IMG/VR virus record: IMGVR_UViG_3300042562_002450
Span: 134,627 to 198,626 of that record
Length of the DNA stretch: 64,000 bases
Reading direction: 5' to 3' (one strand)
DNA from: a virus
Under the pieces are notes generated by a model, which was not told the origin of the DNA, searched no databases, and saw only the letters and a program-made list of their open reading frames with translations. Shown here piece by piece: positions 1,479 through 63,570 of this stretch. How positions within the stretch are numbered: the stretch's first letter is position 1; every line of letters starts with the position of its first letter. The translations under genes were made by a program, and so were the position numbers.

Positions 1479-1961
1479 ATGTATTATCTTACTTTTATAT
1501 TTAAAGATCCAGATACACTTATAATTAAGTGTGTTGGTGTTAAATATAAGAAAACAGAGTTTGAAGACTCCGATATTGCTAAGTTGCTGAAACTAGGCAC
1601 TTCTAATATTGAGACTAAGTTTTGGCTTAAGGAACTAAGAAAAGAAAATAAGATACCAGTTCTTGAGATACTATATAAAGGTCTAAGTTCAGCTGAAGCT
1701 TGCTTTGCAAAACAACAAATACTAATACAATCTGTAGAAGAAAAGATTGACCTAATTGGTCAACAACCTTTAACTAAGAAGTATACAAAAAAGATGAGAA
1801 GCAATAATAGTATGCGCTCTGCTATTGTTGATCAGTTTGGAAATAACTACTCAGGCATACTAGAAGCAGCAGAAAGATTACTACTAGCTCCATCTAATAT
1901 TTCAAAAGTTTTACATGGTAAGCTTGAACATATTGGTGGATATATCTTTAGCTTTCTTTAA
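1479..1961 (+). CDS. Free-standing GIY-YIG-like homing endonuclease with C-terminal NUMOD1-type HTH, probably degenerate
   Basis: YYLTFIFKDP...KCVGV and WLKELRKENKIPVLEIL resemble the Y-x-L-x-DP...YVG GIY-YIG subfamily; C-terminus YSGILEAAERLLLAPSNISKVLHGKLEHIGGYIFSF is NUMOD1-like; it lies antisense to its neighbours. Confidence 0.6.
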   Translation: MYYLTFIFKDPDTLIIKCVGVKYKKTEFEDSDIAKLLKLGTSNIETKFWLKELRKENKIPVLEILYKGLSSAEACFAKQQILIQSVEEKIDLIGQQPLTKKYTKKMRSNNSMRSAIVDQFGNNYSGILEAAERLLLAPSNISKVLHGKLEHIGGYIFSFL

Positions 1962-62100: not shown

Positions 62101-63570
62101 AAGACTAATGGTAAAAAAGTTAATTTTAATACTATTAATGGTGATCTTTTAAAAGAAGCTGCTAATGAACTCTTTTATAAAGAAGGAATATTAAATCAAA
62201 GTAGTAATATTGCGTTACCAAGGATTATGTCTAAACAATTAACTGATATTGAATGTCCTTATAGTGTTGCTATTGTAGCTAATGATAAGAATTACAAAGA
62301 TGTTGTTAGTAAGATTCTTCATAATTTGGAACCTGGTATAGAACAAGACTGGTCCAATAATGGAGATGCTTGGTTTAAAGATGTTTATTGTTTAGCAATT
62401 AGAGAACCTGTTTTATTTCTTAAACAAAATTTAAATGTTTTAAGAATGTGGTCTAGACGTAAAGCTAATAAAGAGTATAAAGAAAAACTTGGTATTACTT
62501 TTGATCAGAAACATCCTGAAACTAAAGGAATTTATCTTAATCCTGTTTTTGTTGTTAAAGATCAAGAAGGTGATGTTGATGGAGATAATATCTTTTTAGC
62601 TGTTCCTAAAAGTATTGAAGCTCAACAAGCTATGGTTGCTATTCATGAATTGATTAAAGACAATGCTTTTTATAATAATGGTAATAATGATAATGAAAAG
62701 ATTAAGTCTTTTTCTGAAAATTATATTGTTTCAAGTTATACTTATTTATTAAAAGAAGCTAAAAGTTTAAATTTCAAATTAGATGTATTATCAATTGGTT
62801 ATTCTACTTTGTCTTTTAAAAAGAGTTTTCTAGCTAATGTTGAAGCTGCTGAAAATAAAATGTCTGTTGGTATTTTGACAACAAGTTTATGGTATATAAC
62901 GTATTTTCTAGATTTTTATATTTATAATTATGATAATTTTAAATCTAGATATAGTATACCAGAAATAACTAATAAGGAAAAAGAACAAATTTTATTTGTA
63001 TTTCAATATCTTCTTGCACAACAAAATGGTGTTAGAGCAATGAAAGATGAAGCTGCTTACGGTTTAATTACAGTTGATTCATTAATTACAAATTCTGAAA
63101 TTGATGATAAATTTGCAAGAGTTCTTTTGCTTACTTTAATTGAAGATCATAGAAAAGACAATTTAAAATGTAATGTTCAAATTGATTTTTCTGATGCTAT
63201 TGTTAAATTGTTTAAAATATTTGATAACTTTTTTGTTTCTTCTAAAAATGGAAAAGGGTTTGGATATACAACTGATTACAATACAAATGATTCTAAACCA
63301 TTTAGATATACTGATTATAGATGGACAAATGGAGAAGCTAAAGCAGATCAATATGGTCGTATATCAACAGATCATATAGATTGTTCTCGATTGTATGATC
63401 CTGTTTTTATTGATTTTGAATCAATGTTTTTACTGGTTAATGGTAGGGATCCGAAAAAGTTTGTTGATAAGTTTGGTTATGAAAAATTATTAGAATGTTT
63501 AGATTATGCTAATAAAAGTTATTTGCATAGTCCTTTATTTAGTTTGTCGAAAGACATATCAATATCATAG
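59134..63570 (+). CDS. Putative non-virion single-chain two-barrel RNA polymerase
   Basis: CKC...CNKC zinc site, RIKCEELSKNV two-Lys motif, GFKSG, AIREPVL, catalytic-type GDVDGD (62569-62586), KMSVGILT; AAGGAG RBS before ATG 59134. Confidence 0.8.
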   Translation: MKKLYYDVLSQEGTEFVSKFFTVKDFLDILENNLMSYRDFRNEVSNISDVQSRDYIINNINELYQGHFSSNNLADLDKVIFNEKRHKFTHLFSQKILNFEKYKKPIFNYDINGVTPLRVDTQDDDEQVVFDPSFEKGNVIIRVYNYTKDKTLIKSSFKDEDTCLNIEGGIHDNQNRVLPWVVDQWINQEELKLDIDSLYIISPLLSLALRTYDKMLLLCKTKTSFVKPYLLHNAITASFNDARIVVGMNLRYKTINNSFIRIVPNIIRKNKEGEYSISRFFNYVYSNKGRDVFSYADVITGGSGKSGSNKIKIKDYKSAILSLNIEEILFTKEENTSNGLYSWINVDFTKVLNLYGKTILADLGVLSNHMVHVDYVNKQYKIAMNGPTKIVMDLSKESGLNKKINQRLKLNNSRTFSFDEEDEINKKMIRKNLIVNDLITKDMNDTDYFFHRNVNYMSNSKELEIDNYIRNGLIAFISNEIDELSESDLMNMSEEDRAKYYYSLRGIACEGFFTSNFLEQRMLADRTERLKVVLDETVDSFKDLVASPDSYKFVKFENNDNSQFLVQNYLECKCSGKIVNDKCNKCNDPIALDTNDLKSSYWVDFKKDFDFVQIVDIKIVEDGINVYLKYSIPLANSRIKCEELSKNVAVQTSQQDVGYIVDLNCGDIHVENVKIPLDVTYFGLGGFKSGTNGFGFTALRLYNALKNKIHVSSSDCINDEEKVNEFLKDFKKSIVQVPMYNKETNRYEIRKVEAWIGLIALSPTEISQEFNKSKSEEDKSFSKANYSLYNSLGLSYFNEILAQENHIVVSKMDDLRLELIKIAKIHNSFRPEGKDTLKQLELRKKHEALIAGVPNLTSEYYVSNNDLFFTKGFERYSLKTHMKMKEFEYLLNNFPLFSNPKFEHGFIIDCSFESSSDSVKHRSADIGDVQHSIYFPTRKILKSMFERVGDDFIRINPVLIKYINIFETLSVSKYGQGGTYGTSRTFLVGKTNGKKVNFNTINGDLLKEAANELFYKEGILNQSSNIALPRIMSKQLTDIECPYSVAIVANDKNYKDVVSKILHNLEPGIEQDWSNNGDAWFKDVYCLAIREPVLFLKQNLNVLRMWSRRKANKEYKEKLGITFDQKHPETKGIYLNPVFVVKDQEGDVDGDNIFLAVPKSIEAQQAMVAIHELIKDNAFYNNGNNDNEKIKSFSENYIVSSYTYLLKEAKSLNFKLDVLSIGYSTLSFKKSFLANVEAAENKMSVGILTTSLWYITYFLDFYIYNYDNFKSRYSIPEITNKEKEQILFVFQYLLAQQNGVRAMKDEAAYGLITVDSLITNSEIDDKFARVLLLTLIEDHRKDNLKCNVQIDFSDAIVKLFKIFDNFFVSSKNGKGFGYTTDYNTNDSKPFRYTDYRWTNGEAKADQYGRISTDHIDCSRLYDPVFIDFESMFLLVNGRDPKKFVDKFGYEKLLECLDYANKSYLHSPLFSLSKDISIS

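What the first reader, a model, noticed from the sequence alone, without database searches (positions are those of the whole stretch)
1958..63570. Two paralogous single-chain two-barrel RNA polymerases, one in the tail module and one in the right arm
Seen: the protein at 1958-6367 and the protein at 59134-63570 (both about 1470-1480 aa) share ordered motifs: two-Lys segment (GDKIHDIAGEVKATV / RIKCEELSKNV), KSG, REPV, DxDGD (GDYDGD / GDVDGD) and K..(I/V)G. Known: these mark double-psi beta-barrel polymerases such as SPbeta YonO, crAss-like phi14:2 gp66 and Thermus P23-45 gp64/gp96. Inference: an injected virion RNAP transcribes early genes and a newly made RNAP transcribes late genes. The paralogs are very divergent and would probably be annotated as hypothetical or tape measure.
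Basis: partly seen in the sequence, partly recalled or inferred. Interest (0 to 1): 0.85.

Follow-up and report, generated by a model that had tools for sequence, protein, structure and literature searches.

The report
Two hidden phage RNA polymerases
An uncultured 199-kb contractile-tailed lake phage encodes two very divergent single-chain relatives of cellular RNA polymerase, one in the tail "tape-measure" slot (probably carried in the particle) and one among early-type genes; this two-enzyme strategy has been proven only in one unrelated Thermus phage.

Summary
Window 1958-6367 (-) and 59134-63570 (+) encode proteins of 1469 and 1478 aa, and they carry the only two D.DGD motifs among the genome's 380 ORFs.

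Sequence methods are blind: Pfam, PHROGs, PDB sequences and tblastn against 50,697 phage records found nothing. AlphaFold models decide the fold (pLDDT 86.5 and 73.4). In an unbiased search of 48,161 PDB chains, the top 12 and top 22 hits respectively are all two-barrel RNA polymerases. Isolated DPBB domains superpose on the segment holding RxP...DxDGD. The catalytic Asp triad, the RxP motif and two lysines are invariant or nearly so in each family.

The tail-encoded enzyme sits where Bacillus phage 0305phi8-36 has gp146, a mass-spectrometry-proven virion protein. It shares gp146's C-terminal module and is translationally coupled to a homologue of virion protein gp145. Packaging is therefore likely but inferred. 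The temporal roles of the two enzymes are also inferred.

"Paralogous" is not shown: similarity between the two is confined to the catalytic loop.

The kind is known from P23-45 gp96/gp64. These families, and the separate gene in a contractile tail, are new. Cultured Acinetobacter phage ME3 carries unannotated relatives. The scan has noted similar tail-slot polymerases on other DNA.

The parts
1958..6367 (-). P0001, 1469 aa: single-chain two-barrel RNA polymerase in the tape-measure slot of the tail module; candidate virion RNAP
4517..4561 (-). Two-lysine segment of P0001 (K610, K619): candidate DPBB-B (beta-like) active-site lysines
3071..3463 (-). DPBB-A (beta'-like barrel) of P0001, residues 974-1104, holding R1045-E-P and D1092-Y-D-G-D1096 (3095-3250)
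2228..2284 (-). Single hydrophobic, transmembrane-like helix near the C-terminus of P0001
   Evidence: Kyte-Doolittle peak of 1.64. Conserved across the family (consensus KYA.LPAAA.GL.GT). ME3_36 has an equivalent segment.
1961..2200 (-). C-terminal module of P0001, about 80 aa ending in RGY, shared with virion protein gp146 of Bacillus phage 0305phi8-36
   Evidence: The family HMM scores 25.3 bits against the last 150 aa of gp146, while 500 shuffles reach at most 3.2. gp146 was identified in virions by mass spectrometry according to its GenBank note.
6364..11847 (-). P0003, 1827 aa: giant protein upstream of P0001, with its TGA stop overlapping P0001's ATG (ATGA); homologue of the virion structural proteins ME3_35 and 0305phi8-36 gp145
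   Evidence: tblastn E 2e-34 (ME3) and 4e-15 (0305phi8-36 ORF145, virion by MS) over residues 1125-1658. Start/stop overlap read.
59134..63570 (+). P0002, 1478 aa: second single-chain two-barrel RNA polymerase, at the end of a run of small same-strand ORFs; candidate non-virion RNAP
61045..61077 (+). Basic segment of P0002 (R645, K647, K653): candidate DPBB-B active-site residues
   Evidence: R645 and K653 are invariant and K647 is at least 90% conserved in 15 relatives. The segment lies in predicted strands within the part that aligns to beta/Rpb2-type chains 8q3b_B, 4c2m_B and 7s00_C.
62215..62646 (+). DPBB-A of P0002, residues 1035-1178, holding R1097-E-P and D1154-V-D-G-D1158 (62401-62586)
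60847..60891 (+). Invariant Cys4 cluster (C579, C581, C590, C593) in P0002: probable zinc ribbon
   Evidence: All four cysteines are invariant in 15 relatives. Zinc binding is inferred from the CxC...CxxC spacing only.
15012..17699 (-). Tail sheath (15606-17699) and tube-like protein (15012-15593), which fix the module as a contractile tail
   Evidence: PHROG tail sheath, E 6.7e-74. The tube-like ORF and its paralogue are in the same order as the sheath, tube and tube paralogue of 0305phi8-36 and ME3.
3..1175 (-). C-terminal part of a 2059-aa lysin or hub-like giant that follows P0001 and runs off the window's left edge
   Evidence: PHROG endolysin, E 5e-31. The whole ORF is at genome 129622-135801. 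The homologue in a related contig carries GH108, PG_binding_3 and SNase domains. It occupies the position of the 'baseplate hub protein' with peptidoglycan-degrading domains in 0305phi8-36 and ME3.

Best explanation
The phage encodes two separate single-chain two-barrel (DPBB) RNA polymerases, each belonging to a family that has no sequence-level link to any described polymerase.

P0001 is made with the tail proteins. Its gene lies between a homologue of a proven virion protein and the lysin or hub giant, in the slot where related phages have their presumed tape measure. It ends in a membrane-type helix plus a module shared with a proven virion protein. I infer that it is built into the tail or particle, leaves with the DNA, and starts transcription of the incoming genome independently of the host polymerase.

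P0002 has no membrane segment and lies at the end of about 18 kb of small same-strand early-type genes. I infer that it is made after infection and takes over transcription of later gene classes.

Shown here: the ORFs, the conserved catalytic residues, the predicted folds, the synteny, and the co-occurrence of both genes on related contigs. Inferred: enzymatic activity, DNA as the template, packaging, and which genes each enzyme reads.
For: Fold.
- P0001 model: pLDDT 86.5. P0002 model: pLDDT 73.4.
- Foldseek against PDB gives only RNAP chains in the top 50 for both.
- In searches of 48,161 representative chains that do not depend on Foldseek, the top 12 (P0001) and top 22 (P0002) hits are all two-barrel RNAPs: QDE-1, RDR2, Rpb1/beta', Rpb2/beta, AR9, phiKZ, P74 gp62, P23-45 gp96 and crAss gp66. 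Stand-alone DPBB domains then align on the DxDGD segment.
- The N-terminal halves align to beta/Rpb2 chains and the C-terminal halves to beta'/Rpb1 chains, as expected for a fused enzyme.

Catalytic residues.
- The Asp triad, the RxP motif and two basic residues are conserved across 46 and 15 relatives.
- Both proteins pass the filter [RK]xPx{20,100}DxDxD that Chaban et al. used to survey viral RNAPs.

Virion link for P0001.
- The gene order is sheath, tube, tube paralogue, small ORFs, P0003, P0001, lysin giant. This matches 0305phi8-36 (gp139 to gp147) and ME3 (ME3_29 to ME3_37).
- gp145 and gp146 were found in virions by mass spectrometry, according to the GenBank notes.
- P0003 is homologous to gp145 and ME3_35.
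- P0001's C-terminal module matches the end of gp146 at 25.3 bits, against at most 3.2 for shuffles.
- The ATGA overlap with P0003 indicates translational coupling.
- The giant/P0001/HNH order is kept in six other contigs, including distant members.

Both genes together.
- They occur on the same 209-kb contig and, by the contig lengths listed, on a 98-kb contig.

No other polymerase or sigma factor.
- Pfam models for RdRP, Rpb1_2, Rpb2_6 and sigma70 region 2 found nothing in the genome. The T7-type model also found nothing, but its control rang nowhere.

Precedent.
- P23-45 gp96 (virion) plus gp64 (non-virion) (PMC10770324).
Against: - No experiment bears on this phage: it is a metagenomic contig with no virion proteome and no transcription data.
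- I could not inspect coordinates, so the placement of the lysines opposite the Asp triad is not verified.
- 0305phi8-36 gp146, the proven virion protein in the same slot, has no DxDxD. The slot therefore does not by itself imply a polymerase, and only the C-terminal module is shared.
- No promoter motif that could separate two regulons was found.
- The contig is linear and about 89% complete, so a further polymerase or sigma gene could lie in the missing part.
Confidence: 0.62

Rival explanations
1. Both proteins are active RNA polymerases, but neither is packaged. P0001 is simply co-expressed with the late genes and works inside the cell, for instance in very late transcription, while the host polymerase starts the infection.
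For: There is no direct evidence of packaging. P23-45 uses the host RNAP for late genes. The promoter-like sigma-70 scan was uninformative.
Against: - A polymerase first made together with tail proteins would come too late to be of much use unless it is carried to the next cell.
- The gene is translationally coupled to a homologue of a proven virion protein.
- It sits in the slot of a proven virion protein and shares that protein's C-terminal module.
- It ends in a membrane-type helix, as tape measure and ejection proteins do.
Confidence: 0.15
2. One or both enzymes copy RNA or make primers rather than transcribe DNA. That is, they act as an RNA-dependent RNA polymerase like QDE-1 or RDR2, or as a replication primase.
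For: QDE-1 and maize RDR2 are among the best whole-length structural matches for both models. The language-model search put a phage cluster carrying Pfam RdRP third for P0001, at a score of 0.83, which is a lead only.
Against: - The phage members of that clade tested so far (YonO, crAss gp66, P23-45 gp64 and gp96) are DNA-dependent RNA polymerases (PMC5467207, PMC10770324).
- Rpb1/beta' chains score as high or higher.
Confidence: 0.1
3. P0001 is in essence a structural tail-lumen or tape-measure protein. Its polymerase core is a relic with no catalytic role.
For: It occupies the slot annotated 'hypothetical tape measure protein' in 0305phi8-36. That protein shares only the C-terminal module and has no DxDxD.
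Against: - The Asp triad, RxP, two lysines and several further residues stay at least 90% conserved across 46 relatives that have fallen to 17-20% identity. Only selection on the active site explains this.
- The protein is predicted to be a compact globular enzyme (pTM 0.85), not an extended ruler.
Confidence: 0.06
4. The resemblance is an artefact: chance motifs, plus structure models that drift towards a common fold.
For: No sequence method links either family to known polymerases. The alignment used for P0002 had only 15 sequences.
Against: - Two independent models built from unrelated alignments both retrieve only RNAPs out of 48,161 chains.
- The profile of the wide P0001 alignment places AR9 beta' among its five best PDB sequence matches, aligned exactly on DxDGD, although the E-value is only 1.2.
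- The motif residues are the conserved ones.
Confidence: 0.03

Closest known systems
Thermus phage P23-45 gp96 (virion RNAP fused to the tape measure protein) with gp64 (non-virion RNAP); Chaban et al. 2024, PMC10770324; PDB 8H2M/8H2N, and 8F5M for the P74-26 homologue
   Same: - One phage carries two very divergent single-chain two-barrel RNAPs.
- One is tied to the tape-measure part of the tail and the other is encoded among early genes.
- Similarity to other RNAPs is confined to the DxDxD region.
- Both window proteins pass the authors' motif filter.
   Different: - Here the tail is contractile (sheath), not a long siphovirus tail.
- The polymerase is a separate 1469-aa gene next to another giant protein, not the N-terminus of a 5002-aa tape measure.
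- It has its own C-terminal membrane helix.
- QDE-1 and cellular large subunits are closer structural matches than gp96 or gp64.
- No sequence similarity was detected.
- Packaging and regulons are untested here.
Neurospora QDE-1 and plant RDR2 (eukaryotic RNAi polymerases; PDB 2J7N, 7Y7P, 7W82)
   Different: They are eukaryotic and use RNA or single-stranded DNA templates. Their Pfam family, RdRP PF05183, does not match either window protein.
SPbeta YonO and 0305phi8-36 gp99 (phage single-chain RNAPs of Pfam PF05183)
   Same: They are single-chain phage RNAPs. gp99 lies just inside the terminal repeat, at the head of a run of small ORFs in a phage whose tail module is syntenic with this one. 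P0002 has a similar position.
   Different: Neither family profile detects gp99, and PF05183 finds nothing in this genome. YonO-type proteins are about 800-1200 aa.
crAss-like phage phi14:2 gp66 (virion-packaged RNAP, PDB 6VR4)
   Different: It belongs to a podovirus and is a 2180-aa protein. It is a weaker match than QDE-1 or cellular subunits and did not appear among the 50 rows shown for P0001.
phiKZ and AR9 jumbo-phage virion and non-virion RNAPs (PDB 7S00, 7OGP, 8QUE)
   Same: The logic of two polymerases, one virion and one non-virion, in large contractile-tailed phages. AR9 beta' is the best Foldseek hit for P0001 (E 2.4e-4).
   Different: Those enzymes are split into four or five subunits and are closer to bacterial beta and beta'. 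Here each enzyme is one chain.

Membership tests
Two-barrel (double-psi beta-barrel) RNA polymerase superfamily | DxDxD metal-binding loop, conserved in the family | tested here: met
   P0001 has D1092, D1094 and D1096 at least 90% conserved in 46 sequences. P0002 has D1154, D1156 and D1158 invariant in 15.
Two-barrel (double-psi beta-barrel) RNA polymerase superfamily | [RK]xP 20-100 residues before DxDxD (survey filter of Chaban et al. 2024, Supplementary Data 4) | tested here: met
   REP lies 44 residues before the loop in P0001 and 54 residues before it in P0002. R and P are conserved.
Two-barrel (double-psi beta-barrel) RNA polymerase superfamily | DPBB fold around the DxDxD loop (DPBB-A) | tested here: met
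Two-barrel (double-psi beta-barrel) RNA polymerase superfamily | A second barrel (DPBB-B, beta/Rpb2-like) that supplies two basic residues | tested here: met
Two-barrel (double-psi beta-barrel) RNA polymerase superfamily | Template-dependent RNA synthesis | not testable with these tools
   This needs a primer-extension assay with wild-type protein and Asp-loop mutants.
YonO / eukaryotic RdRP family (Pfam PF05183) | Match to the family profile above its cut-off | tested here: not met
   There is no PF05183 hit for either protein or anywhere in the genome. The same search does find gp99 of 0305phi8-36 at E 1e-20.
Tape-measure-fused virion RNAP (P23-45 gp96 type) | Polymerase and tape measure in one polypeptide | tested here: not met
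   P0001 is a separate 1469-aa ORF that is predicted globular up to its terminal helix. It overlaps the stop codon of the upstream giant ORF by ATGA.
Tape-measure-fused virion RNAP (P23-45 gp96 type) | Presence in the virion | not testable with these tools
   The support is indirect only: the syntenic slot and a shared C-terminal module with the MS-proven virion protein gp146.
Multisubunit jumbo-phage RNAPs (phiKZ / AR9 type) | Beta- and beta'-like parts split over several polypeptides; Pfam Rpb1/Rpb2 domains often detectable | tested here: not met
   Each protein covers both barrels in one chain. PF00623 and PF00562 find nothing in the genome.
crAss-like virion RNAP (phi14:2 gp66 type) | Structural similarity closer than to other two-barrel RNAPs | tested here: inconclusive

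The most novel reading that the evidence does not exclude
A broad, unrecognised group of large contractile-tailed phages has placed a complete RNA polymerase in the tail-lumen 'tape-measure' slot and pairs it with a second orphan polymerase. The group has at least 48 protein clusters at 50% identity, and cultured Acinetobacter phage ME3 is a distant member. Such phages would run a transcription programme independent of the host polymerase without the split phiKZ-type enzymes. The enzyme would have to be unfolded or threaded through a contractile tail tube, anchored by its terminal membrane helix, and would transcribe DNA as it enters.
Probability: 0.4. Interest if true: 0.72.

Novelty: new variant of a known kind. 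Interest (0 to 1): 0.6.

Why it matters
Two-barrel RNA polymerases delivered by the virion have been proven only for crAss-like podoviruses and the Thermus siphovirus P23-45. In jumbo myoviruses the known solution is a split multisubunit enzyme.

This finding adds two sequence-orphan families of single-chain enzymes in a contractile-tailed phage. One is a separate gene in the tape-measure slot. That raises a concrete mechanical question: how does a 160-kDa globular enzyme leave through a contractile tail?

The finding also shows that current annotation and expert surveys miss these genes. The P0001-type protein of cultured phage ME3 is annotated as 'hypothetical protein'. ME3 is absent from the viral RNAP survey of Chaban et al. 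2024 and from the list of jumbo phages with two-barrel RNAPs in Iyer et al. 2021.

Because ME3 and its laboratory host are available, the idea can be tested directly. The tests are virion proteomics, rifampicin-resistant early transcription, and in vitro activity.

Tried and rejected
- Sequence searches that found nothing for P0001, P0002 or P0003: Pfam and PHROGs, phmmer and family-profile hmmsearch against PDB sequences, and tblastn of P0001 and P0002 against 50,697 phage records.
- Scans of IMG/VR with both family alignments found no relatives.
- A profile search of the 5.8-billion-protein set with the P0002 family gave no new members.
- The ESM Atlas gave no usable hit for P0002 and only a weak lead for P0001.
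- hhalign between the two close-family profiles found no relation (probability 1.3%). With the wider P0001 profile, only the catalytic loop aligned. I therefore dropped 'paralogues' as a demonstrated claim.
- The 'KSG' motif is not conserved in the wide P0001 alignment, so I treat it as chance.
- Promoter hunt: repeated k-mers over the genome, k-mers enriched in 107 upstream regions, T4-late-like TATAAATA, and a sigma-70 plus terminator scan. None gave a motif that defines regulons. The direct repeat upstream of P0002 is local only.
- Family profiles against the ME3 and Ma-LMM01 records through the genome search gave nothing. An unfiltered hmmsearch in the script box did find ME3_36.
- The metagenome contigs of relatives could not be searched whole. 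Co-occurrence is therefore documented for only three genomes.
- Neither family profile sees 0305phi8-36 gp99.
I could not check residue-level geometry or compare the two models directly.
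Full report
**Setting.** The window is the last 64 kb of a 198,626-bp IMG/VR virus record, linear and about 89% complete.
- PHROG matches identify a large terminase subunit, a portal, a major head protein and a tail sheath on the minus strand. The phage therefore has a contractile tail.
- A simple gene call shows two arms: a minus-strand structural arm (genome about 97-176 kb) and a plus-strand arm of mostly small ORFs. The plus-strand arm starts at window about 41 kb and runs off the right end of the contig.

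**The observation.**
- P0001 is window 1958-6382 (-); homologues start at M6, giving 1958-6367 and 1469 aa.
- P0002 is window 59113-63570 (+); homologues start at M8, giving 59134-63570 and 1478 aa.
- The two D.DGD strings are the only ones in the 380 ORFs of at least 60 aa in the genome.
- The best BLASTP segment between the proteins is exactly REPV..GDxDGD (26% identity over 137 columns, E 0.002).

**Sequence methods are blind.**
- Pfam, PHROGs, PDB sequence searches (single sequence and close-family profiles) and tblastn against the phage collection gave nothing.
- Pfam models for RdRP, Rpb1 domain 2, Rpb2 domain 6 and sigma-70 region 2 find nothing in the genome. The T7-type model also found nothing, but its control was silent.

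**Families.**
- P0001 has 9 close relatives (35-43% identity) and P0002 has 15 (40-48%) in the 5.8-billion-protein set.
- Both occur on one 209-kb contig. By the contig lengths listed, both also occur on a 98-kb contig.
- A profile of the P0001 core, searched against 1.84 billion representatives, found 48 clusters, mostly of 1400-1600 aa.
- In the resulting 46-sequence alignment (down to 17% identity), the columns conserved at 90% or more are: K610, K619, G772, R782, R867, G907, R1045, P1047, E1049, D1092, D1094, D1096, K1139, K1166, G1170, S1173, E1206, K1210, K1212 and D1254.
- In the P0002 family the equivalent residues are invariant, as is a Cys4 cluster.
- Both proteins satisfy the filter [RK]xPx{20,100}DxDxD used by Chaban et al. 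for their survey of viral RNAPs.

**Fold of P0001.**
- The model of residues 190-1389, built with the 46-sequence alignment, has pLDDT 86.5 and pTM 0.85.
- Foldseek against PDB returns only RNAP chains in the top 50, led by phage AR9 non-virion RNAP beta' (E 2.4e-4, probability 1.0).
- In the search of 48,161 representative chains that does not depend on Foldseek, the first 12 hits are all two-barrel RNAPs.

**Fold of P0002.**
- The model of residues 286-1485, built from 15 sequences, has pLDDT 73.4 and pTM 0.64.
- The Foldseek top 50 are again all RNAP beta'/Rpb1 or beta/Rpb2 chains.

**Are they paralogues?** Not shown.
- hhalign of the close-family profiles finds nothing.
- With the wide P0001 profile, the only hit is the REP..DxDGD stretch (E 7e-4, probability 26%).
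- This is the general situation among two-barrel families, where similarity is limited to the DxDxD region (PMC10770324).
- A direct comparison of the two models was not possible.

**Is P0001 a virion protein?** The evidence is indirect but coherent.
- Downstream of the sheath lie a tube-like ORF, its paralogue and three small ORFs. Then come P0003 (1827 aa), P0001, an antisense HNH ORF and a 2059-aa lysin giant.
- P0003 residues 1125-1658 match ME3_35 of Acinetobacter phage ME3 (E 2e-34) and ORF145 of Bacillus phage 0305phi8-36 (E 4e-15).
- In both cultured phages the order is the same: sheath, tube, tube paralogue, chaperones, that protein, a giant ORF, and a baseplate hub with peptidoglycan-degrading domains.
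- The giant ORF is ME3_36 ('hypothetical protein', 1603 aa) in ME3. In 0305phi8-36 it is gp146 ('hypothetical tape measure protein', 2537 aa). gp145 and gp146 are recorded as found in virions by mass spectrometry.
- ME3_36 is the second-best BFVD structural match of the P0001 model (E 2.4e-10).
- With filters off, the P0001 family HMM matches ME3_36 over REP..DHDQD and the following helices (31-37 bits, shuffles at most 7.0). It is the only one of 60 long ME3 frames to match.
- gp146 has no DxDxD but shares the last 80 or so residues, ending in RGY (25.3 bits against at most 3.2 for shuffles).
- P0001 and ME3_36 each have one membrane-type helix about 100 residues from the C-terminus.
- P0001's ATG overlaps the TGA of P0003.
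- The giant/P0001-like/HNH arrangement recurs in every related contig examined, including members at about 20% identity.

**P0002.**
- It has no hydrophobic segment.
- It lies about 18 kb into the plus-strand run of small ORFs. Its homologue on the 209-kb contig has the same setting.
- 0305phi8-36 has an annotated YonO-like RNAP, gp99, in a comparable place next to its terminal repeat. Neither of the family profiles here detects it.
- In ME3, the P0002 family profile weakly picks ME3_307 (10.9 bits, E 1.3e-4 among 60 frames, shuffles at most 4.0). The alignment lies on a DVDGD loop. The gene may be split (ME3_309, ME3_308, ME3_307). This is a lead only.

**Mechanism.**
- I commit to the P23-45-like scheme. 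P0001 is carried in the particle and transcribes the entering DNA. P0002 is made afterwards and takes over.
- Which classes each enzyme reads, and whether the host polymerase is used at all, is open. No promoter classes emerged.

**Comparison with what is known.**
- The kind of system is established. P23-45 has gp96 plus gp64, and those authors state that many viruses encode two two-barrel RNAPs (PMC10770324). phiKZ and AR9 use the same logic with split enzymes. crAss-like phages package gp66.
- Four things differ here: two new sequence-orphan families, a contractile tail, a stand-alone polymerase gene in the tape-measure slot with its own membrane helix, and a module shared with a non-polymerase virion protein.
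- ME3 is absent from the Chaban survey. Iyer et al. [quoted passage not shown]
- Within this scan, similar tail-slot polymerases have been noted on other genomes. I did not test those notes, and they are not counted as evidence.

**Verdict.**
- Polymerase identity is strongly supported by predicted structure and conservation.
- The virion role is probable.
- Paralogy and temporal roles are unproven.
- This is a new variant of a known kind, of moderate to high interest, because a cultured relative makes it testable.

Noticed in passing
L013:16409-21220 (KU935715 33172-37983, ME3_36): Cultured Acinetobacter phage vB_AbaM_ME3 has an unannotated P0001-type protein of 1603 aa in the same tail slot. 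It carries REP...DHDQD and a C-terminal hydrophobic helix. Neither the RNAP survey nor the jumbo-phage review that I checked lists it.
   Followed up: partly
L029:5115-9850 (KU935715 222114-226849, ME3_307 to ME3_309): ME3_307 aligns weakly to the P0002 catalytic region, including a DVDGD loop only 34 residues from its annotated start. A 243-aa ORF (ME3_308) separates it from a 798-aa ORF (ME3_309). This may be a second polymerase gene that is split or interrupted.
   Followed up: partly
window 1479-1961 (+): A 160-aa ORF lies antisense between P0001 and the lysin giant. Its counterparts in relatives hit Pfam I-HmuI_NUMOD-like (HNH homing endonuclease type). The position is kept in six related contigs, which is unusually stable for a mobile endonuclease.
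   Followed up: partly
window 56000-64000; L003:10001-14476: The P0002 gene has 25.6% GC against 34.1% for the genome, and the low-GC stretch starts about 3 kb upstream of it. The homologue on the 209-kb contig is also lower than its flanks (30.3% against about 34.5%).
   Followed up: partly
window 59065-59102 (+): Two exact copies of TTTGTTTATTTGTTT flank a TATAAT, 30-70 nt upstream of the P0002 start, and a strong AAGGAG ribosome-binding site follows. The repeat is not found as a motif elsewhere in the window.
   Followed up: partly
L014:17918-25531 (0305phi8-36 gp146): The 'hypothetical tape measure protein' of 0305phi8-36 shares only the last 80 or so residues (ending RGY) with the P0001 family and has no DxDxD. 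The slot protein therefore seems modular: one common C-terminal anchor with different cargo.
   Followed up: partly
window 6364-11847 (-); L011:2852-8548; L002:15106-20979: The giants that flank the polymerase gene carry enzyme domains in some relatives. The upstream giant has an SNase domain in one contig. The downstream giant has GH108, PG_binding_3 and SNase domains in another. Together they look like a set of delivered enzymes around the polymerase.
   Followed up: no
window about 41971-43610 (+): The 16-mer CACATACTGATGAGGC occurs three times in the genome and contains the hammerhead core CUGAUGA. I did not map or test the copies.
   Followed up: no
window 6250-6367 (-), P0001 residues about 15-40: A conserved Gly/Ala-rich hydrophobic N-terminal segment (consensus D.FS..GR.AL.GG..YA) is present throughout the P0001 family. 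ME3_36 has a comparable segment. It lies outside the modelled region and its role is unknown.
   Followed up: no
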